Source of the DNA: Promethearchaeota archaeon | Lineage (GTDB): Archaea > Asgardarchaeota > Hermodarchaeia > Hermodarchaeales > Hermodarchaeaceae | Assembly: GCA_048939245.1 (NCBI GenBank) | Contig: JBHLPR010000004.1 | Span: 1 to 64,000 of the forward strand | DNA: 64,000 nt | Reading direction: 5' to 3' | Shown here: piece after piece, positions 17,952 through 28,091 of the stretch | Numbering within the stretch: position 1 is the first letter of the stretch | Layout: every line of letters begins with the position of its first letter | Notes under the pieces: model-generated | What the model saw: the letters and a program-made list of their open reading frames with translations, nothing else | The model's database searches: none | What the model was told of the DNA's origin: nothing | Translations under genes and position numbers: made by a program

Positions 17952-19340
17952 ATGTCCAAAGAAGCCTTTGACAAACTAGAGAACCGAATCCTCTCACGTT
18001 TAGATCCACAGGATCGACGCGATGTGCGGAGCTTACTCCGGAATGTTACACTCTTTATTAGACGAATTGAGAGGACACACCTTAGTGAAGGAGAAAAGAA
18101 CTACCCGAGTCATCCACTTTTCTCTCACAGAGACCAAAAAGGAGGGCAAAATACAGCAGAAACCTTGCGTTATCGTTTACAATTTGTTGACCGATTTCAC
18201 ATTGATAAGAAGCAATACATCATCGATGTGTTGACCCAAAACGTACCCATGGGAGGTAAAAAACAATTATCAACCCGTAAAGCGCAAATCCTTTGGCAAT
18301 TATTTCAAGATCCAATCATACCAAAATACCAAATTGCGAAGAAAATAGGTACGACACCTCGCACAGTTTCGAAGGATTTAACGGAACTGGAACAGGATTA
18401 TGCACTGCGCGTTTTCACGAATATTGATCCACATAAATTCCATTTAACCATGCGCATCATAATGTTTGAGACTTACTCCTTTAATCATACTAAGAAGTTG
18501 GAAAAATTTGTATCAAACCATCGTGGGTTTCTACTATACTTTCGACTCGATCAAGACATGCGTCAAGGAACTGTCACTTTTCGTTATCCAGACCAGCCAA
18601 ATGGGCATCAAATGTTTGAGAAACGATATAGCTGGCTTAATGATGAATTCTTCAAAGAATCTTATCAGATTCAAGCCCTCGGACTATACCAATCGATTTC
18701 TTTCGAGATGTATAACCCAACAATACATGCATTCTCAATCGAACCAGAAATAGTGTCACAAGTTCCCTTTGATTACAGTAGGCAGTCCATAGATACTCTT
18801 CCGCAACCTCGTGGATTTGACTTCACCGAGTCTTTTGATTTTGATCAAGCAGATTTTCTGTTATCAGGAATCTTGTATTCATCTGGACCTCTTACACACC
18901 CGGAGTACAAACAAAATTTGTTAGCCCGATTTGGAATTAATTACTCGATGAAAACAATCTGGAAAAAACAGCAACGTTTACGAAAGGAGAAAGCGGGGTA
19001 TCCGATGATTGAATTACAAATTCCGGGCTTCGATGAAGATATGATGCTAGTTGTATTCTGCACACCTAAAGCTACTTCAGCGATTCGTGCCATCTCTGCT
19101 TTTCTTCCATCAGTGATGTTCATCAATACCAATTCTGGCTGCCTATTGCGGATTCAACGCCCTGTTCACACATCTGCTCTCACAGGTCAACTGATTCGGA
19201 AAATCCATAATCAACAAGGAGTAACTGATGTCAAACTACTTCGCTACAAACAAAGATTACAAACACCATTATTACCTGCGATTGTCAATCGATGGAATGC
19301 AGCAGAACAAGAATGGCAGCTTGAAGAAGGAGACATTTAG
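17952..19340 (+). CDS. Large double-HTH (tandem Lrp/AsnC-like) putative transcription regulator, paralog 1
   Basis: HTH KYQIAKKIGTTPRTVSKDLTELE; second HTH-like YSMKTIWKKQQRL; Trp-containing motifs closing each half. Homologous to 19359-20792 and 24484-25920. Confidence 0.65.
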   Translation: MSKEAFDKLENRILSRLDPQDRRDVRSLLRNVTLFIRRIERTHLSEGEKNYPSHPLFSHRDQKGGQNTAETLRYRLQFVDRFHIDKKQYIIDVLTQNVPMGGKKQLSTRKAQILWQLFQDPIIPKYQIAKKIGTTPRTVSKDLTELEQDYALRVFTNIDPHKFHLTMRIIMFETYSFNHTKKLEKFVSNHRGFLLYFRLDQDMRQGTVTFRYPDQPNGHQMFEKRYSWLNDEFFKESYQIQALGLYQSISFEMYNPTIHAFSIEPEIVSQVPFDYSRQSIDTLPQPRGFDFTESFDFDQADFLLSGILYSSGPLTHPEYKQNLLARFGINYSMKTIWKKQQRLRKEKAGYPMIELQIPGFDEDMMLVVFCTPKATSAIRAISAFLPSVMFINTNSGCLLRIQRPVHTSALTGQLIRKIHNQQGVTDVKLLRYKQRLQTPLLPAIVNRWNAAEQEWQLEEGDI

Positions 19341-19358
19341 TCCACAAGGAGAGACAAT

Positions 19359-20792
19359 ATGATGACACTAAAACGAATTCAAACTGTAGGAACAAGAAAC
19401 TCGCCTTCCATCGACTCAGATTTCATTGAAAATATAATATCGCGTTCTGAACCAGTAGAGGACCGAGATGATCTCCGCCAATTTCTCACAAATGTTCGTC
19501 TCTTCATTAAACGGGTGGATGGATTTGATTTAACCGAAGAAGAAAAAGAATATCCTGCGCATCCCCAGTTCAGCCACCTTACATTTAGAAAAGGAAAGAA
19601 TACAGCTGAAGGTCTTAAAGCCCGATTGAGAACTATCGATCGGTATCAGATTACGAACGTTCAGCAAATAATAAACATCATTGCGTCAACAGCCGTCTCA
19701 AGTCAAATGGAAAGCCTTACACTTCGACAGATTCGTCTTATTGAAGAATTGCATAAAAAGCCTTTAGCAGCTCAATATGAACTCGCTGAGAGACTTTTCA
19801 CTACATCGCAGGTAATTCGACAGGAGTTGACACAGCTCCGTCAAAATTTCTCTTTGGCCGTTCTCTATGATTTTGACTGTCACAAATTTCGACTAAATTC
19901 TTATGAGATAGATTTTCGCACTAAATCGCTTGATGCGTCTCAAGAATTGGAAACATATTTTCGGAGAACCCAGCCCACCTTTTTACAGCGCCTTAATTTT
20001 GACCATAATTATCGTGATGGATTCTTCTATTATTTCATACCAGATCAACCATCAGGGCAAAGAATGTTTGCAGAACGAGTAGAATGGTTGAATTCCAATT
20101 TTCTTGAAGATTTATCGATATTTCAGGTCCACAGTTTTCAAATTGACATCTCATTCGAAAATTATAATCATTTGACTGGAACATGGATGCTCAACGCAGA
20201 TACCTTCTCAGCCGGAATGCTCCAGTTCTTATCACACCAAGAGCGAAGCCAGCTTCCGCCCCGTGGAATGATATTTGGTGACTTTAATCGTTTTGATAGG
20301 ATTGATTTCATCATTGTGTCCACAGCATATGTCTTTGGGAAAAAGCGATATACGGATATTTGTCAGAAAGTGTTAGAACGGCACGGCTACTCATTATCTA
20401 GAAAAACAATATGGAATCGACTGAAGAAACTGTACCAGATGGGCACGATTTATCCATTGCTTTGGTATGATATTCCTGACTTTGAAGAGTTGGTCAAGTT
20501 TAGTATTATTTGTACTCCAGAGGCAATAGAACCGATTTACCGGCTCATTTCAATACTTCCGTACACCTACTCTTTAAGAACAGATGTAGGCATAACGTTC
20601 ACGTTTCAAAGACCCAGTCGTTGTACTTCAATCACCGGATTATTAGTGGAGACATTTGATCAGATTGAAGGCGTTTCCAACATCAAGATAATCCGTTATG
20701 AACCCACCTTTAGCCCACAATTGTCTACCAAAACGGCAGACCGATGGGATGAAAGCCGCCAACGTTGGTTACCCCAGAAAGGCGACATCTAA
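19359..20792 (+). CDS. Large double-HTH putative transcription regulator, paralog 2
   Basis: QYELAERLFTTSQVIRQELTQL; LSRKTIWNRLKKL; same C-terminal W...W...GDI as paralog 1. GGAG SD. Confidence 0.65.
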   Translation: MMTLKRIQTVGTRNSPSIDSDFIENIISRSEPVEDRDDLRQFLTNVRLFIKRVDGFDLTEEEKEYPAHPQFSHLTFRKGKNTAEGLKARLRTIDRYQITNVQQIINIIASTAVSSQMESLTLRQIRLIEELHKKPLAAQYELAERLFTTSQVIRQELTQLRQNFSLAVLYDFDCHKFRLNSYEIDFRTKSLDASQELETYFRRTQPTFLQRLNFDHNYRDGFFYYFIPDQPSGQRMFAERVEWLNSNFLEDLSIFQVHSFQIDISFENYNHLTGTWMLNADTFSAGMLQFLSHQERSQLPPRGMIFGDFNRFDRIDFIIVSTAYVFGKKRYTDICQKVLERHGYSLSRKTIWNRLKKLYQMGTIYPLLWYDIPDFEELVKFSIICTPEAIEPIYRLISILPYTYSLRTDVGITFTFQRPSRCTSITGLLVETFDQIEGVSNIKIIRYEPTFSPQLSTKTADRWDESRQRWLPQKGDI

Positions 20793-22490: not shown

Positions 22491-22640
22491 AATCAGGTCG
22501 TTCGGGACTCCGTTCTTCCCGCTTAAGAGTTTGCCGACGTCAAGGACGAATACTGAAGGAAACCTATAAAGACGAGAACCACTGCTGCAATCTTATCAGT
22601 GCATTACTGATTTCAGTGGAATACCTCGAGTGTGAAGCAT

Positions 22641-23249
22641 ATGGGCGATAAAATCATCAAATATCATGTCCAAAAAGACCAGTTGGTCCGAGTTCCCTCA
22701 GATTACCTGAGTGAGTTCGCTACGGGCGATGTGTACCTGGTTGACACGGGAAGTGTCATTTATTCATGGATTGGAAAAAAAGCCACTCCAGATGAACGTT
22801 TCATCGGAGCTATCACATCCGTATGGAAAGACCAAGATAGGAAGGGAGCAGCAAAGTTAGTCACGATTAGCGAAGGTAAGGAACCCAAAGAATTCTTGAA
22901 ACTCTTCAAAGACAAAATCACGATTACAGAACAAGACACCGAAGGAATTCTAAAACGTGTAGCCCTCAAACACCACGAATTCAAGCTGTTTCGTGTCCAT
23001 ATCGAAGACGATTTGAATTTGTATTATGAAGTCGACTGCTCGAAAGAATCCCTCGCGTCGGATGATGTCTTCCTTTTAGATACCTATAATGAAATCTATA
23101 TCTGGCGTGGTCAAAAATCCACAGCATTTGAACGATGGGAAGCGATGAACATCGCCGAAGGTTACGATGCACAACGCACAAGTCGTCAAGAAATCATTAT
23201 TGTCGAAGAAGGCGAAGAGCCAGAAGACTTCTTAGAAATTCTCGATTAA
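22641..23249 (+). CDS. Two-domain gelsolin (Asgard 2DGel-type actin regulator)
   Basis: Two gelsolin repeats (GDVYLVDTG..IYSWIG...EGKEPKEF; DDVFLLDT..IYIWRG...EGEEPEDF) joined by an ILKRV linker. Confidence 0.9.
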   Translation: MGDKIIKYHVQKDQLVRVPSDYLSEFATGDVYLVDTGSVIYSWIGKKATPDERFIGAITSVWKDQDRKGAAKLVTISEGKEPKEFLKLFKDKITITEQDTEGILKRVALKHHEFKLFRVHIEDDLNLYYEVDCSKESLASDDVFLLDTYNEIYIWRGQKSTAFERWEAMNIAEGYDAQRTSRQEIIIVEEGEEPEDFLEILD

Positions 23250-23263
23250 TTTCTCAGAAACAA

Positions 23264-23454
23264 CAATGGTGTGGAGGTAACCAAGAAAGGGGAAGAAACC
23301 CTATCTTTTAGTAATAATACAGTAGGCCCCAGAGCCCTTCTTGGTCAATTTCCCACTGGTCATTTTCGCTTTTTCCCGACGCAGCCCATGTAAACCAGTC
23401 GAACTCTGCCCCAGTGCAGGCGAGAGACACTGGGACAGAGCACTGTGACTGGTT
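23264..23454 (-). ncRNA. Structured 3' region (two long hairpins) downstream of the small-protein operon
   Basis: 14-bp stem 23403-23416/23428-23441 (2 G-U pairs on the minus strand) closed by 8-bp 23393-23400/23447-23454. Second stem 23279-23290/23335-23346. Confidence 0.5.
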
Positions 23455-23800
23455 AAGTGGCTTCATCGAGGACTAAGCTAACAAATTTACCCAATCGACC
23501 CGTGTGTTGAATAGCCTTGATCAGTCGGGCCTCGTGCGTCGACTTCTTGACAAGAAGATGATTCTCTCGGACGACAGCGAGTTCCGTGAGAAGGTCATAG
23601 AGTCGACGTAGTTCAACTCGATCGACTTGCTCAGAAAGGCGTTCCAGGAGGCGGAACACATCGGTCATTTCAACCTTCTCGAGCTGGTCAAGTTGCTCCG
23701 TGACATTATGCGACCGCAAATAGGATCGGGCTAGTCGTAAAATTGGGTCGCTTGCGTTTTCTGTCCCTGTGGTCACGGCAATTCCCCTCAGAGTCGCCAT
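23453..23800 (-). CDS. Hypothetical alpha-helical protein (115 aa)
   Basis: ATG 1 nt after the stop of the upstream ORF, with GGGGGTG SD. Amphipathic helical sequence MATLRGIAV...HEARLIKAIQHTGRL. Confidence 0.65.
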   Translation of the reverse strand: MATLRGIAVTTGTENASDPILRLARSYLRSHNVTEQLDQLEKVEMTDVFRLLERLSEQVDRVELRRLYDLLTELAVVRENHLLVKKSTHEARLIKAIQHTGRLGKFVSLVLDEAT

Positions 23801-23801
23801 G

Positions 23802-24065
23802 TTACGCACCCCCGATGCTGGCGACGTTAGAGATTTCTTGACCATTGGGCTCAACGCGTACGCGAACTCCGCTGGGAGTCGCTTCAACGATGACCCGACC
23901 ATTAAGGCCGCAGGTATCCTTGACTAATTCTAATAGCAAGGTACCAATTGCTCCGATTTCTCGGAGGTCTTCACATCCCGTCTTCGGGGTAATACAGAGA
24001 TCAATTGGGTAGGCGTCCGTGACGCCAATCATTCGCTGGGTTTCTTCCATCAGTTCTGTAGCCAC
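23802..24065 (-). CDS. Hypothetical small protein (87 aa)
   Basis: GTG start 6 nt after AGGTGGAG SD (MATELMEETQRMIG...). Beta-alpha-beta-beta pattern; translationally coupled to the next ORF. Confidence 0.65.
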   Translation of the reverse strand: MATELMEETQRMIGVTDAYPIDLCITPKTGCEDLREIGAIGTLLLELVKDTCGLNGRVIVEATPSGVRVRVEPNGQEISNVASIGGA

Positions 24066-24083
24066 TTTTTTCTCCACCTTTCT

Positions 24084-24248
24084 AAACACAACTAGGAAAA
24101 ATAAGAACGTGAACACAATGCCGTAGTGATATTCGTACTGAGCAAGCCAACTCAGTTTATCCGTTCTTTAGAACGGCCAAACATCAGATGTCCACGGACC
24201 CATTGTGCGTTTTTCACATCCGGTAATTTTTCCCTTGCGAGTGTGTTT
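24084..24248 (-). ncRNA. Candidate cis-regulatory leader RNA (long nested stem ending in a three-way junction)
   Basis: Mutually nested helices 24084-90/24242-48, 24095-102/24226-33, 24106-09/24208-11, 24114-20/24201-07, 24121-26/24192-97 and 24127-34/24179-86, plus hairpins 24137-56 and 24161-76. G-U pairs are valid only on the minus strand. Confidence 0.6.
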
Positions 24249-24270
24249 GCTGGAATCTATTACAAACAAT

Positions 24271-24313
24271 GGATACTAGCCTTTAAGTATCCGTTCAGAG
24301 AGCGGTGAACGGA
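24271..24313. promoter_or_regulatory. TATA box (minus strand TACTTAAAG) with two abutting inverted repeats
   Basis: GGATACT-N8-AGTATCC (24271-24292) and TCCGTTCA-N8-TGAACGGA (24290-24313). Confidence 0.55.
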
Positions 24314-24483
24314 GCTGACAAAAAAGCCGATTCATCGAAAAAAACCATCCAGAGCTTAGAATAGACTTTAAACACGTTAATGGTGATGCATTCCTGTAAC
24401 AGGATTTTGAGTCATCTTCTATAATTTCAACTTTTCGTCAAAAGGAAACTTTTTATGCCTGTTTCTTTCTTTCTGACGATGGT

Positions 24484-25920
24484 GTGGCGCGCGTGCAATC
24501 GGTGGTTGAAGTAGCAGATTTACTCTCATCATTGAAGCACAATATTCATGAAAATATGCGCCCAAGCGAAGAACTATTCGAAATAGATCTTTTACTCGAT
24601 AATCTGAAACTTTATGCAAAACGAGTGAAAGGTGTACCACTTAACGAAGAAGATCACAGGCTCCAACCGTACAAAGAATTCGATGGCATGGTTGTGACAC
24701 CTCGCGAACGAACGTATAATTCGTTGTTGCGACGACTTAAGGTCATCCTTCGATTCAACATCACTTCTTATGAGAAGGTTACCCGGGATCTATTACGGGG
24801 ATTAATCTCTGAAGAAGCCGATCGGATAACTGGAAGAGAAATCCGGTTAATGACGTTGCTGTATCAACGCCCCAACACGCCGCAGGCACAAATGGTAAAA
24901 GAGTTGAATGTCAGTCTGCCTACGATACGAAAGGACATCAAGACCTTAGAAGAGAAAATTGGTTTAAGGTTTGCCAATATGGTTGACTGGGGACGGTTTA
25001 AATTACGGCATTACGGGATTTTCTTCATTACCTCAGGTGTTGAAGCATCGAAGAATCTCGCAAAGGTCCTAAATGAAGAGATGTCCACTTATTTGAGAAG
25101 AGTGAATTTTGATACAACATTTCAGAGGGGCTTTGCCGGTTTTCTGATCCCGGATCAAGGAAAACCCACACAACTCTTTTCAGAGCAAATTAAATTGTTA
25201 AGCGAAAAGTTCTTCGAAGAGCACCAGCTCCACCAAATTAAGAAATACAACCAATCGATTTGCTTTGATCATTTTGACTATGAAACCAGCACATGGATGA
25301 TTGAAGGTGATGTTTCAACTCTCGGCCTTCTTAATTTTGTACGGGAAAACTGGGCGATTCTTCCAAAGCCACGAGGGTTATCCAATACTCTAGCACGTCC
25401 TTTCGATGACCTTGATTATTATCTTGCCTGTTTATTAGGTGGGGATAGTAATGCACCAATGAAGAAAATTTTAAGCAGATTAGAAGCAGTGGGAATCAAA
25501 GCACCTCGAACAACTGTATCTACACGAAAGAACCGTCTCCACAAAGAAAGGACATTGGAACCCTTTTTCACTTTTGGGACGCCACAACTCCCCTTTTTCA
25601 TTACTTTTGCAATTAGATGCGAGCCACATATTGCAGAGCAGCTGGCTGTGGCTGTTGCACAAATGCCACAGGGTTTCGTGTCAATTTCGAATATGGGTTG
25701 TGTTATTAATGTGTATGTGCCCGCAAGGAGCCTCGGAACTATTCTAAATCTTCTTTCACTAACACTTGAGGAGGAGGGAGTTCATGAGGTGTGGCAGATG
25801 CAACAGTATCGCAATATGGGATCTTATGGACCTGCACGAATTGCTCATAAGTGGAATGGGTCATATTGGACCTGGTCTGAGGATGAATTCGCTCTTCCAT
25901 CTTTGGGACTCGAGTTCTAA
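24484..25920 (+). CDS. Large double-HTH putative transcription regulator, paralog 3
   Basis: QAQMVKELNVSLPTIRKDIKTLE; PRTTVSTRKNRL. Shares the N-terminal domain and FK-L, IPDQ, SICFDHFD...W and PKPRG motifs with paralogs 1 and 2. Confidence 0.65.
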   Translation: MARVQSVVEVADLLSSLKHNIHENMRPSEELFEIDLLLDNLKLYAKRVKGVPLNEEDHRLQPYKEFDGMVVTPRERTYNSLLRRLKVILRFNITSYEKVTRDLLRGLISEEADRITGREIRLMTLLYQRPNTPQAQMVKELNVSLPTIRKDIKTLEEKIGLRFANMVDWGRFKLRHYGIFFITSGVEASKNLAKVLNEEMSTYLRRVNFDTTFQRGFAGFLIPDQGKPTQLFSEQIKLLSEKFFEEHQLHQIKKYNQSICFDHFDYETSTWMIEGDVSTLGLLNFVRENWAILPKPRGLSNTLARPFDDLDYYLACLLGGDSNAPMKKILSRLEAVGIKAPRTTVSTRKNRLHKERTLEPFFTFGTPQLPFFITFAIRCEPHIAEQLAVAVAQMPQGFVSISNMGCVINVYVPARSLGTILNLLSLTLEEEGVHEVWQMQQYRNMGSYGPARIAHKWNGSYWTWSEDEFALPSLGLEF

Positions 25921-25981: not shown

Positions 25982-27022
25982 GTGGTGCAGCGTATTAGTA
26001 GTAAATTGATAGTTCGAGAAGGCGATTTCATTGAAACCATTGAAGGGCTTATTTTTGATGTCAAGGGACTCGTGCATCCACCGGATAGAGTTATCGCATT
26101 CTTGCGATATTATCCCTCGCCGAATGGGAAGCGAGAAAGAGATGGGCAACGTTATGATAAGGTCTATCATCTAACTGAACGCTTCGATTATCTGCGAGAA
26201 CATTATCCACACTATCTATACCATGACAAAGTATTTGGAACAGAATTGCAGAACATACCTCATTCTTTCATACGGGAAATCTTTCATCCGAAGGAACAGC
26301 TTCTTCGACTGAGAGAGCTTGAGCAACGAGACGCATTGCAGCAAGATGTGGTTACCTTTGCTGATATTATTGAGGAGAAGGCACGGGTTTCAGCTGACGC
26401 CTTGGGGATTTCTGGTAGTGTCCAAGTAAATCTTCATGGAGAGACCTCAGATATTGATTTGATCGTGTATGGTCGTCGAGAAGCACGAGCAGTACAGCTG
26501 GCATTACGCCGGGCTCATTTGATACCCGAAGAAGGAATTTCGGGGTATCGATTGGACACATACCGAACCGTCTACAACTTACGGTGGTCAGGGACCGGTA
26601 TCCCCATCGAAAAGATGCTGTTAGTTGATGGGTTGAAGTCCATGCATGGAGTATTTGGGGGGCACCACTACTTCATTCGAGCAATACTGGATTGGGATGA
26701 GATTCAAGAGGAATATGGGGATTGCATATACGAACCGATTGGACAGGCTCGAGCCCAATGCACGATTTCTGATGATCGTGATGGTCTATTTACTCCATGC
26801 CGTTATGAAATTGATGATGTAGTATTTTTGAAAGGAAAGAAAATTCAAGATCTGCGCGAGATAGTCAGTTTTCGGGGACGATTTGCTGAACAGGTCCGCC
26901 AAGACGAAACTGTCGTGGTGCAGGGCATGGTAGAAATAGTCAAATGTGGGAAAGAAAAGTGGGGTCGGTTCTTGTTAGGTGCTCAACCAACAGATATCTT
27001 ATTACCCCGTAATGTCATTTGA
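25982..27022 (+). CDS. Predicted Pol-beta-superfamily nucleotidyltransferase (COG1665-like), copy 1
   Basis: REGDFIET.EGLIFDVKG..HPP, GISGS...SDIDLIVYG, FTPCRY, SFRGRFAEQ. Confidence 0.82.
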   Translation: MVQRISSKLIVREGDFIETIEGLIFDVKGLVHPPDRVIAFLRYYPSPNGKRERDGQRYDKVYHLTERFDYLREHYPHYLYHDKVFGTELQNIPHSFIREIFHPKEQLLRLRELEQRDALQQDVVTFADIIEEKARVSADALGISGSVQVNLHGETSDIDLIVYGRREARAVQLALRRAHLIPEEGISGYRLDTYRTVYNLRWSGTGIPIEKMLLVDGLKSMHGVFGGHHYFIRAILDWDEIQEEYGDCIYEPIGQARAQCTISDDRDGLFTPCRYEIDDVVFLKGKKIQDLREIVSFRGRFAEQVRQDETVVVQGMVEIVKCGKEKWGRFLLGAQPTDILLPRNVI

Positions 27023-27044
27023 TTAATATGCTGGTGGTTTAGGG

Positions 27045-28091
27045 GTGGCACGGCTTCCAAAAGACAAAGACTTTATCGAAACCAAAGAGGGATTATTTTT
27101 TACTGTTGTGGGATATTTGCATCCCCCAAATGCATATACTGCATACTTGAAGTACCGTCCGGATTCAAAGGGCAAATGGGAACGGGGAGGTGTTCGGTAC
27201 CAGCGGATGATGCAAGTGTATAGTGCTGCTGAAGTGCAATCCAGCAGTAGTTGGTTACTGAAACATTTTCCTGAATACATCAAACTTGATCCAGTACGAG
27301 GGATTAAACTGCCATTGGTTCCTTGGGAGAATACTGTTGCTTATTATTTACCTGAGGTACGAATGGCTGAGATACTCCGCGATCCGCAAGATCCGCTGGA
27401 ATCAAAGGCGAAGGCGTTGGTTACTCTGCTATCCGAAGCCAGTGGAGTTGACTTGAGCAGGTTTGGTGTTTCCGGATCGATTCTTTTAGAAATTCATAAT
27501 CCAATGTTTTCCGATATTGATTTGCTCGTGTATGGATTAGAGAATGTGCAACGTGTTCGGGATGTGATGGACGAGTTATTTGGAGAGAATAAGGTCAAGC
27601 CCTACTCAGGGGAAGAGGTTCAATCATGGCAATTGCGGCAGGTAAGGATACTGGGAGTTCCTGCTCGCTACGCAGAACAAATTGCGTGGTCACATTGGCA
27701 ACGTGGACGATTTGGAAAAACAGCTTTTTCGATAGGTGCAGTTCGAATGGATGGGGAAATCATGAACCAATATGGAGCTGAAACCTATTCGCCGGTAGAA
27801 GCTGTTGAATTCACAGCCACGATTATTGAGGATGAGGAAAACCTCTTTGTGCCAGCCCGATATTTAGTGGGTGATATCAACATGGAGGAGGGTTATACAG
27901 AATTACCTGCGTTAACGGAAGTAATTTCATTTGAAGGAGTGTTTGCAGCAGTTTTCAACAAAGGTGACCGGGTTAGGATCCGTGGAATGGTGGAGGCGGT
28001 TCGTGACGAGAAGGAGAATATCCTTCGAAACCATGTGATTGTTGGCACCTTGTCTTCGCAGGGTTGGATTGTGCGGCTTACTTCGGCATAA
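27045..28091 (+). CDS. Predicted Pol-beta-superfamily nucleotidyltransferase (COG1665-like), copy 2
   Basis: DKDFIETKEGLFFTVVGYLHPP, GVSGS...SDIDLLVYG, FVPARY. Confidence 0.82.
   Translation: MARLPKDKDFIETKEGLFFTVVGYLHPPNAYTAYLKYRPDSKGKWERGGVRYQRMMQVYSAAEVQSSSSWLLKHFPEYIKLDPVRGIKLPLVPWENTVAYYLPEVRMAEILRDPQDPLESKAKALVTLLSEASGVDLSRFGVSGSILLEIHNPMFSDIDLLVYGLENVQRVRDVMDELFGENKVKPYSGEEVQSWQLRQVRILGVPARYAEQIAWSHWQRGRFGKTAFSIGAVRMDGEIMNQYGAETYSPVEAVEFTATIIEDEENLFVPARYLVGDINMEEGYTELPALTEVISFEGVFAAVFNKGDRVRIRGMVEAVRDEKENILRNHVIVGTLSSQGWIVRLTSA

What the first reader, a model, noticed from the sequence alone, without database searches (positions are those of the whole stretch)
23264..25920. Candidate new RNA-controlled system: two orphan small proteins wrapped in structured 5' and 3' RNA, divergent from a double-HTH regulator
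Seen: an 87-aa and a 115-aa ORF are translationally coupled (1-nt gap; both begin MAT) and visibly more GC-rich than their flanks. They are preceded by a ~190-nt nested leader, followed by ~190 nt containing two long hairpins, and driven by a TATA box embedded in tandem inverted repeats, facing away from regulator paralog 3. Most neighbouring genes have very short or no UTRs. Inference: a self-contained regulated module, such as a stress/dormancy or toxin-antitoxin-like pair under both transcriptional and RNA-level control, or a ribonucleoprotein whose proteins bind their own RNA.
Basis: partly seen in the sequence, partly recalled or inferred. Interest (0 to 1): 0.8.

Follow-up and report, generated by a model that had tools for sequence, protein, structure and literature searches.

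The report
Folded Asgard operon with proline mini-gene
Two small proteins of unknown function in an Asgard archaeon are made from an unusually folded, slowly changing messenger RNA. Its 'leader' hides a conserved 11-codon proline-rich mini-gene, and this unit sits opposite the same type of DNA-binding regulator in at least five Asgard families, so it is probably an undescribed control circuit.

Summary
The 87-aa (23802-24065, GTG start) and 115-aa (23453-23800) minus-strand genes are real and 1 nt apart. They are GC-rich, follow a ~190-nt leader, precede two 3' hairpins, and face a double-wHTH regulator.

New here:
1. The leader contains a mini-ORF (24203-24168, 11 codons, own SD-like site). 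It is present in all 17 family genomes whose leader was assembled and in two metagenomic contigs. Its pattern is M-x-P ... P-aromatic-P-x-stop.
2. Similar mini-ORFs, an A-like small protein and a divergent regulator homolog recur in families f5, f8, f12 and f14. A mini-ORF with an A-like gene also occurs in f26. B is specific to family f1.
3. Synonymous divergence of A and B (pS 0.36) is half that of ribosomal-protein genes (0.68-0.73), without strong codon bias. The coding region folds at z = -4.1, against -0.6 and -0.7 for neighbouring genes.
4. Hairpin 1 of the 3' UTR covaries.
5. In 13/13 genus-1 species both SD sites are predicted to be masked.

The proteins match no family or fold, and a toxin-antitoxin reading is not supported.

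Best reading (about 0.45): a translated leader peptide controls A/B translation. Main rival (about 0.3): the peptide is a signal or ligand for the regulator.

The scan saw this operon before on other DNA (e1-5552442).

The parts
24484..25920 (+). REG3: 478-aa regulator with a wHTH domain, divergent from the operon
   Evidence: ORF. HTH_11/MarR-type hits at residues 116-158. Orthologs and paralogs in families f1, f3, f5, f6, f8, f12 and f14.
24435..24479 (+). REG3 promoter: TATA-like element (24450-24457) between the arms of a 14-nt inverted repeat, about 27 nt before the GTG start, so the mRNA is probably leaderless
   Evidence: Inverted repeat I1. The block is nearly invariant in 11 species, and one arm is kept in genus 2. 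TSS and leaderless status are inferred from spacing.
24268..24313 (.). Two tandem, overlapping inverted repeats around the operon's TATA-like element (24277-24284); candidate operator
   Evidence: I3 and I4. The TATA-like core is conserved in 11 species, the repeat arms only in close relatives.
24066..24257 (-). 5' leader of about 190 nt, a long nested rod
   Evidence: A 418-nt stretch (24066-24483) containing it folds at z = -4.5, and the leader alone at z = -5.5 in G000. Other species give z = -0.2 to -2.9. The same architecture appears in 13/13 MFE folds.
24225..24257 (-). Invariant 5'-terminal motif, predicted to pair with the region around the A SD
   Evidence: Invariant in 11-13 species and recognisable in clade-3 contigs. 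Predicted pairing in 13/13 species. Both sides are invariant, so covariation cannot test it.
24214..24221 (-). SD-like site of the mini-ORF, 10 nt before its ATG; predicted to pair with 24105-24112
24168..24203 (-). Mini-ORF: 11 codons plus stop, peptide MGPWTSDVWPF
   Evidence: Present in 13/13 genus-1 and 4/4 genus-2 genomes and in clade-3 contigs. Length is 10-14 codons and Pro codons vary synonymously. Similar mini-ORFs stand before A-like genes in f5, f8, f12, f14 and f26.
24155..24182 (-). Hairpin whose loop holds the mini-ORF stop codon
   Evidence: I2. Seen in the MFE of G000 and several other species. Only partly conserved.
24137..24156 (-). Conserved small hairpin in the leader (6-7 bp stem, 6-9 nt loop)
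   Evidence: 5 pairs kept in 9-10 of 11 species
24072..24078 (-). SD of gene A, predicted to be masked by the 5' end of the leader
23802..24065 (-). Gene A, 87 aa, predicted beta-alpha-beta-beta fold; member of an Asgard-wide small-protein family
23453..23800 (-). Gene B, 115 aa, all-helical (helical bundle over residues 43-115); specific to family f1, with one paralog
23393..23454 (-). 3' hairpin 1, starting within the stop codon: 6-bp outer and 13-bp inner stem, with a conserved loop motif
   Evidence: 96.5% of cells paired; 5 pairs with compensatory change; 0 of 500 shuffles reach the score; slid controls pair at 28-44%. Kept in clade 3 with a changed inner stem.
23280..23345 (-). 3' hairpin 2
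   Evidence: 11-bp outer stem with compensatory changes. The stem is kept in two species that have lost the inner part.

Best explanation
This is a chromosomal, vertically inherited three-cistron unit (proline-rich mini-ORF, gene A, gene B) transcribed divergently from a double-wHTH regulator.

The mRNA starts near 24257. Its leader folds into a long rod in which the 5' end masks the SD of A, and a downstream segment masks the SD of the mini-ORF.

I propose that the mini-ORF is a cis-acting leader peptide. Its end (Pro, aromatic, Pro, one residue, stop) is slow to elongate and terminate, and should depend on aIF5A. The dwell time of the ribosome there would then decide whether the A start site is opened, occluded or re-initiated on. 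B follows by termination-reinitiation across the 1-nt gap, with its SD inside the last codons of A. The regulator sets transcription through the palindromes at the promoter. The two 3' hairpins protect or define the 3' end.

Shown:
- The genes and the mini-ORF, and their conservation.
- The conserved link to the regulator.
- The covarying 3' hairpin.
- The suppressed synonymous change.

Inferred:
- The transcription start site.
- SD masking (predicted only).
- Ribosome stalling.
- The direction of the effect on A.
- The signal that is sensed.

The biochemical role of A and B remains unknown. My guess is that they are partners or modulators of the regulator.
For: Mini-ORF:
- An SD-like site and an ATG are present in 17/17 assembled f1 leaders and in 2 clade-3 contigs. 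Length is 10-14 codons.
- The frame is kept although the surrounding leader is only 55-61% identical.
- Pro codons differ synonymously, and all three stop codons are used.
- In other families the mini-ORF stop lies close to the A-like start: overlapping in f12, 16 nt away in f8, 10-35 nt in f14 and f26. A ribosome pausing at termination would sit on that start site.

RNA structure:
- In 13/13 genus-1 species the MFE pairs the mini-ORF SD with a segment about 100 nt downstream, and the A SD with the invariant 5' end.
- The mRNA is unusually constrained. pS is 0.36 for A and B, against 0.74-0.78 for flanking genes and 0.68-0.73 for four ribosomal-protein genes.
- Codon usage is only at the 20th percentile of the expression-linked axis.
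- No conserved overlapping frame exists.
- The CDS folds at z = -4.1, against -0.56 and -0.71 for neighbours.

Precedent:
- Pro-rich leader ORFs sense charged tRNA-Pro or EF-P in bacteria (mgtP, PMC8092293).
- A Pro-Pro-Trp motif in the AZIN1 upstream coding region makes eIF5A a polyamine sensor (PMC8705083).
Against:
- The SD-masking helices are invariant on both sides, so covariation cannot confirm them.
- Leader fold z-scores are modest (-0.2 to -2.9) in species other than G000.
- I could not find a conserved alternative helix that a stalled ribosome would free.
- The peptide is conserved across families whose leader RNA is not, and in f14 it carries a 30-residue N-terminal hydrophobic, signal-like extension. 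This fits a peptide that acts in trans better than a pure stalling device.
- Pro is at -2 from the stop, not at the last codon as in TnaC-type termination arrest.
Confidence: 0.45

Rival explanations
1. The mini-ORF encodes a functional micropeptide (a signal, or a ligand for the divergent regulator or for A), as in peptide-regulator cassettes such as Rgg/SHP or PlcR/PapR. A and B are co-expressed helpers or targets. The folded mRNA only tunes stability and stoichiometry.
For: - The layout is a regulator with a divergently transcribed small-peptide gene. It is kept in f1, f5, f8, f12 and f14 despite different neighbours.
- The peptide's two ends are conserved across families whose leader RNA differs.
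- The two f14 genomes encode a 40-aa form: a basic N-terminus, a hydrophobic stretch of about 20 residues, a small-residue motif, then the conserved 9-10 residue tail. This looks like a secretion pro-peptide.
- An earlier scan report on another genome reached this reading (e1-5552442).
Against: - In f1 and most other families the product is only 9-14 aa with no export signal.
- The regulator shows wHTH hits and no TPR-type peptide-binding domain.
- No exporter, protease or oligopeptide importer is linked in the loci read.
- The mini-ORF is embedded in SD-masking structure and abuts the A start site, as cis-acting uORFs do.
Confidence: 0.3
2. The transcript is a dual-function RNA or ribonucleoprotein. 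The folded RNA has a role of its own, such as a scaffold or a binding site for A/B or other proteins, and that role explains the nucleotide-level conservation.
For: - Synonymous sites are constrained without strong codon bias.
- z is about -4 for the leader region, the CDS and the trailer of G000.
- The loop of hairpin 1 is conserved in sequence even where its stem has changed.
- Predicted pairings, all between invariant segments: the A start with the B end, and the B start with upstream A codons.
Against: - Variation is still concentrated at third codon positions and dN/dS is 0.16-0.22, so protein coding dominates.
- There is almost no covariation inside the CDS.
- There is no Rfam match.
- Genus 2 lacks the 3' hairpins.
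Confidence: 0.12
3. A and B are a toxin-antitoxin or stress/dormancy pair.
For: Two small coupled genes under tight control. They are orphans, so a toxic activity cannot be excluded by homology.
Against: - No hit to any toxin, antitoxin or defence model.
- One copy per genome in a fixed position in all 19 f1 genomes.
- Divergence tracks that of the flanking genes (rho 0.65).
- A-like genes pair with different second genes in other families.
Confidence: 0.03

Closest known systems
Bacterial proline-codon leader ORFs (mgtP of the Salmonella mgtCBRU leader, and the related mgtL) and erm/cat-type leader-peptide translation attenuators
   Same: A short ORF with its own ribosome-binding site lies in a folded leader. 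It has proline codons at which ribosomes are intrinsically slow. The leader structure involves the downstream gene's SD (PMC8092293).
   Different: - The host is an archaeon.
- There is no sequence relationship.
- The motif sits at the very end of the peptide, next to the stop codon.
- No conserved alternative helix or terminator was found.
- The regulated genes are orphans, not a transporter or a resistance gene.
Eukaryotic AZIN1 upstream conserved coding region, with its Pro-Pro-Trp pause read out through eIF5A and polyamines
   Same: A conserved upstream coding element whose Pro/Trp end is the functional part. The factor needed (eIF5A/aIF5A) is shared by eukaryotes and archaea (PMC8705083).
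   Different: - Initiation here is SD-based, with no scanning or ribosome queuing.
- The motif is Pro-x-Pro-x rather than Pro-Pro-Trp.
- No link to polyamine genes was seen in the locus.
Peptide-regulator cassettes of Bacillota (Rgg/SHP, PlcR/PapR, ComR/ComS)
   Same: A small peptide gene is transcribed divergently from a transcription regulator. The peptide's C-terminus is the conserved part. One lineage (f14) has a signal-like pro-region.
   Different: - The regulator has wHTH domains and no TPR domain.
- Most peptides are 9-14 aa without an export signal.
- No linked exporter or importer was seen.
- The peptide gene is the first cistron of an operon with A.
Type II toxin-antitoxin operons
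   Same: Two small, translationally coupled genes under autoregulation-like control.
   Different: No family match, single syntenic copy, vertical descent.

Membership tests
Leader-peptide (uORF) translational attenuators | Short ORF with its own ribosome-binding site upstream of, and co-transcribed with, the regulated gene | tested here: met
   An SD-like site 4-10 nt before an ATG/GTG, and 10-14 codons, in 17/17 f1 leaders. Co-transcription is inferred from promoter position only.
Leader-peptide (uORF) translational attenuators | Conserved stall-prone codons or peptide motif | tested here: met
   Pro at codon 3 in 15/17 genomes. The end follows the pattern Pro-x-Pro-x-stop or aromatic-Pro-x-stop, and Pro codons change synonymously. 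The same holds in five further families.
Leader-peptide (uORF) translational attenuators | RNA structure that masks the downstream ribosome-binding site | tested here: inconclusive
   Predicted in 13/13 species. Both strands are invariant, so there is no covariation test, and there are no probing data.
Leader-peptide (uORF) translational attenuators | Alternative structure or occlusion set by the position of the stalled ribosome | tested here: inconclusive
   No conserved alternative helix was found in f1. In f8, f12 and f14 the stop lies 0-16 nt from the A-like start, so direct occlusion or re-initiation is plausible.
Leader-peptide (uORF) translational attenuators | Demonstrated ribosome pausing | not testable with these tools
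RRNPPA / Rgg-SHP type peptide-regulator cassettes | Small peptide gene next to its regulator | tested here: met
   Divergent adjacency in f1 and in 6/6 testable loci of f5, f8, f12 and f14.
RRNPPA / Rgg-SHP type peptide-regulator cassettes | Regulator with a TPR-type peptide-binding domain | tested here: not met
   Pfam and NCBIfam give only wHTH-type hits, with no TPR.
RRNPPA / Rgg-SHP type peptide-regulator cassettes | Exported and processed pro-peptide | tested here: inconclusive
   A signal-like N-terminal extension occurs only in the two f14 genomes. Elsewhere the peptides are 9-14 aa.
Type II toxin-antitoxin systems | Homology to a known toxin or antitoxin family | tested here: not met
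   No hit in Pfam, NCBIfam or PADLOC. Foldseek and VIA gave no specific match.
Type II toxin-antitoxin systems | Patchy, mobile, multi-copy distribution | tested here: not met
   One syntenic copy in every f1 genome. Divergence follows that of the flanks.
Stand-alone RAM-domain partners of Lrp/AsnC regulators | beta-alpha-beta-beta-alpha-beta RAM fold, or sequence similarity to a RAM domain or to the regulator | tested here: inconclusive
   The A model is beta-alpha-beta-beta only. hhalign of A against the regulator gives probability 0.2%. No RAM chain appears among the structural matches.
Curated RNA families (Rfam 15) | Match to a covariance model | tested here: not met
   In 22500-25000 the only match at E <= 1 is a chance snoRNA-like hit inside the gelsolin gene.

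The most novel reading that the evidence does not exclude
The regulator, the Pro/aromatic micropeptide and the A-family small protein form an ancient Asgard-wide signalling circuit of a new kind. The peptide would either be released (exported in f14) and sensed by the double-wHTH regulator or by A, or act as an aIF5A/translation-status sensor. The heavily folded, synonymously constrained mRNA would be part of the device. This would be a first described peptide-based, or arrest-peptide-based, gene circuit in archaea, in the lineage closest to eukaryotes.
Probability: 0.25. Interest if true: 0.85.

Novelty: new variant of a known kind. Interest (0 to 1): 0.62.

Why it matters
Leader-peptide and micropeptide controls are textbook in bacteria, and uORF/eIF5A sensing is well known in eukaryotes. 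My literature searches turned up no characterised archaeal case.

Here a 9-14-codon proline/aromatic mini-gene is kept with one small-protein family in six Asgard families, and opposite the same regulator family in at least five of them. It therefore marks a conserved and experimentally tractable circuit in the closest prokaryotic relatives of eukaryotes.

The locus is also a clean natural example of an mRNA whose synonymous sites are held about as tightly as those of the actin gene, without matching codon bias. That makes it a good test bed for RNA-structure constraint on coding sequence.

Finally, it assigns a context to three orphan families (A, B and the regulator) that annotation pipelines leave blank, and to a mini-gene they do not call at all.

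Tried and rejected
- Family and fold searches. Pfam, NCBIfam and PADLOC on A and B gave nothing. A PDB sequence profile for A gave nothing. Foldseek PDB and VIA-wide gave only generic matches: Z <= 5.2 for A, and Z <= 8.1 for B as a generic helical bundle. ESM Atlas features for B scored below 0.8.
Not supported.
- A against the regulator, and against the ArsR-type regulator of the paralog locus: probability below 1%.
- Complex prediction for A+B: no verdict, score 0.01. This is not evidence either way.
- Codon bias as the cause of low pS: rejected.
- Recent horizontal exchange as the cause: rejected, because divergence tracks the flanks.
- Overlapping or antisense ORFs as the cause: rejected. 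The longest frame open in all species is 42 codons.
- An upstream-extended B start (128-149 aa, as some gene callers give): rejected, because genus 2 has stops there.
- A frameshift fusion of A and B: rejected, because the gap is 1 nt in most species and 2 nt in two.
- A regulon of similar mini-ORFs in this genome: none found. The one look-alike, on contig C12, lies in a stretch that seems to code on the other strand.
- A similar mini-gene upstream of regulator paralog 1 in this window: none.
- tRNA genes in the window: none.
Full report
**What is there**

On the minus strand lie A (23802-24065, GTG start, 87 aa) and B (23453-23800, 115 aa), separated by one nucleotide. The stretch is GC-rich: 0.52-0.555 against 0.39-0.45 in the flanks. 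That is about the 98th percentile of 2209 ORFs in this 2.52-Mb, 44% GC Asgard genome.

Neighbours are a two-domain gelsolin (convergent), CofE and a RimK-like ligase on one side. On the other side are a divergent 478-aa wHTH regulator (REG3) and two nucleotidyltransferase paralogs.

**The genes are real**

Both are kept as an adjacent pair in all 14 other species of the genus (77-91% identity). In one of these, A is cut off by a contig end. Both are also kept in the 4 species of the sister genus (35-51%). With single-protein queries they were not found in 42 genomes of other families.

Public protein collections hold only unnamed Asgard homologs without Pfam domains. A profile of B finds 9 clusters among 1.84 billion representatives. 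Variation is concentrated at third codon positions and dN/dS is 0.16-0.22.

AlphaFold models give a beta-alpha-beta-beta unit for A (pLDDT 76) and an all-helical protein for B (pLDDT 78). Neither has a specific structural or family match.

B has one paralog per genome. It is translationally coupled behind an ArsR-type regulator and followed by a radical-SAM gene.

**An unusually constrained and folded mRNA**

| Gene set | pS between species |
|---|---|
| A and B | 0.36 |
| Gelsolin, REG3 | 0.74-0.78 |
| Four ribosomal-protein genes | 0.68-0.73 |
| Actin gene | 0.34 |

Only the actin gene is as slow, and it has extreme codon bias (GC3 0.75). A+B sit at only the 20th percentile of the expression-linked codon-usage axis, against the 0.1st percentile for actin.

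The low rate is not due to recent exchange, because A/B divergence follows that of the flanking proteins (rho 0.65). It is not due to overlapping frames either.

The coding region folds at z = -4.1, against -0.56 and -0.71 for the neighbouring genes (20 shuffles each).

The consensus fold pairs the A start with the B end, and the B start with upstream A codons. All these segments are invariant, so this remains a prediction.

**3' UTR**

Two hairpins follow the stop codon.

- Hairpin 1 (23393-23454) has 96.5% of cells paired and 5 of 13 inner pairs with compensatory change. No shuffle out of 500 reaches its covariation score, and slid controls pair at 28-44%.
- G-U pairs fit the minus strand.
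- In a third clade, from metagenomes, the inner stem sequence is different but still complementary, and part of the loop sequence is kept.
- Genus 2 lacks these hairpins. In 3 of its 4 genomes a CheY-like receiver gene follows B instead.

**5' region**

REG3 has a TATA-like element (24450-24457) between the arms of a 14-nt inverted repeat, about 27 nt before its start codon. It is therefore probably leaderless.

The operon's TATA-like element (24277-24284) lies inside two tandem, overlapping palindromes. About 26 nt downstream begins a 33-nt block that is invariant across species whose synonymous sites are otherwise saturated.

**The leader is translated, or at least encodes a conserved frame**

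At 24203-24168 lies an 11-codon ORF (MGPWTSDVWPF) with an SD-like site 10 nt upstream.

- An equivalent ORF of 10-14 codons is present in 13/13 genus-1 and 4/4 genus-2 leaders, and in two clade-3 contigs.
- Pro is at codon 3 in 15 of 17, and the end follows the pattern Pro-x-Pro-x-stop or aromatic-Pro-x-stop.
- Pro codons differ synonymously and all three stop codons occur.
- Length changes are whole codons, although this part of the leader is only 55-61% identical.

In 13/13 genus-1 species the MFE fold pairs the mini-ORF's SD with a segment about 100 nt downstream, and the A SD with the invariant 5' end. Fold z-scores are strong in G000 (-5.5) but modest in the other species (-0.2 to -2.9).

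**The module is older than family f1**

An earlier scan report on another genome (e1-5552442) gave the lead for a wider search for the regulator family and for A-like proteins.

- Regulator homologs occur in 34 of 101 sampled Asgard genomes.
- With a profile that includes distant members, A-like genes occur in 26 of 201 genomes, in families f1, f5, f8, f12, f14 and f26.
- In 6 of 6 testable non-f1 loci the A-like gene is divergent from a regulator homolog, with otherwise different neighbours.
- In all but one secondary copy it is preceded by a mini-ORF of the same type. Examples are MYPQDPFPV in f8 and MDPYSDDPFPF in f26.
- The mini-ORF stop overlaps the A-like start (f12) or lies 10-35 nt before it (f8, f14, f26). 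In f5 the distance is about 165 nt.
- The second gene differs between families and has no Pfam match. B is therefore an f1 addition.
- In the two f14 genomes the mini-ORF is 40 codons long, with a basic and hydrophobic, signal-like N-terminus before the conserved tail.

**Interpretation**

The conserved core is the regulator, the Pro/aromatic mini-ORF and the A-family protein.

I favour a cis-acting leader peptide (confidence 0.45). The mini-ORF is always the first cistron and abuts the A start site, or is structurally wired to it. Its conserved part is the last few codons next to the stop. Proline-rich ends are intrinsically slow and EF-P/eIF5A-dependent (PMC8092293, PMC8705083).

The main rival (0.3) is a trans-acting micropeptide sensed by the regulator or by A. 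It is favoured by the conservation of the peptide across families with unrelated leaders, and by the signal-like f14 form. It is weakened by the absence of a TPR-type receptor or of transport genes.

A dual-function RNA or RNP (0.12) would explain the synonymous constraint but has no direct support. A toxin-antitoxin pair (0.03) is contradicted by distribution and homology.

What A and B do biochemically is unknown.

**Limits**

- There are no expression data.
- The complex prediction gave no verdict.
- The TSS is inferred from spacing.
- The SD-masking helices are invariant and so untestable by covariation.
- MAGs are 72-91% complete, so absences are 'not found'.

Noticed in passing
G000 contig C45 (L021:2-781) and L049:3411-5806: The paralog of B (122 aa) overlaps by 11 nt the end of a 226-aa ArsR-type wHTH regulator that has an unknown C-terminal domain. 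A radical-SAM gene follows. The arrangement is kept in every genus-1 genome, so B-family proteins may be regulator partners.
   Followed up: partly
L018:6158-6526 (also L020, L017): In 3 of 4 genus-2 genomes a stand-alone response-regulator receiver (CheY-like, Pfam E = 9e-22) follows B in the same direction. It replaces the 3' hairpins of genus 1.
   Followed up: partly
L109 (G045) and L111 (G062), upstream of the A-like gene: The f14 version of the mini-ORF is 40 codons long. It has a basic N-terminus, a hydrophobic stretch of about 20 residues and a small-residue motif before the conserved Pro/Trp tail. It looks like a secretion pro-peptide.
   Followed up: partly
window 24309-24326 and 24365-24372: Two further conserved blocks lie between the divergent promoters: a T-run followed by a conserved 12-mer, and a TTTAAA-like element. 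Their role is unknown; a second promoter, a terminator or an operator are all possible.
   Followed up: no
window 24155-24182, 24268-24313: The same half-site (about 7 nt, with its complement) recurs in the two promoter palindromes and in the hairpin around the mini-ORF stop codon. It could be a regulator binding site, or a by-product of the Pro-Phe codons.
   Followed up: no
G000 contig C68:3626-4666 (L024): The actin homolog has GC3 of 0.75 and pS of only 0.34 within the genus. Assemblies of several species break inside it. High GC3 marks the most codon-biased genes here (actin, RadA, hydrogenase subunits).
   Followed up: partly
window 17952-20792 and G000 contig C39: Five paralogs of the regulator occur per genome, three of them in this window. 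No mini-ORF or A-like gene lies upstream of paralog 1.
   Followed up: partly
L055:3176-3370, L058: In the clade-3 metagenomic contigs the gelsolin gene is missing between B and cofE. One contig set has a called 64-aa ORF there, without a Pfam match.
   Followed up: no
window 25982-28091: Two diverged nucleotidyltransferase paralogs of about 347 aa lie in tandem behind REG3. They are syntenic throughout family f1.
   Followed up: no
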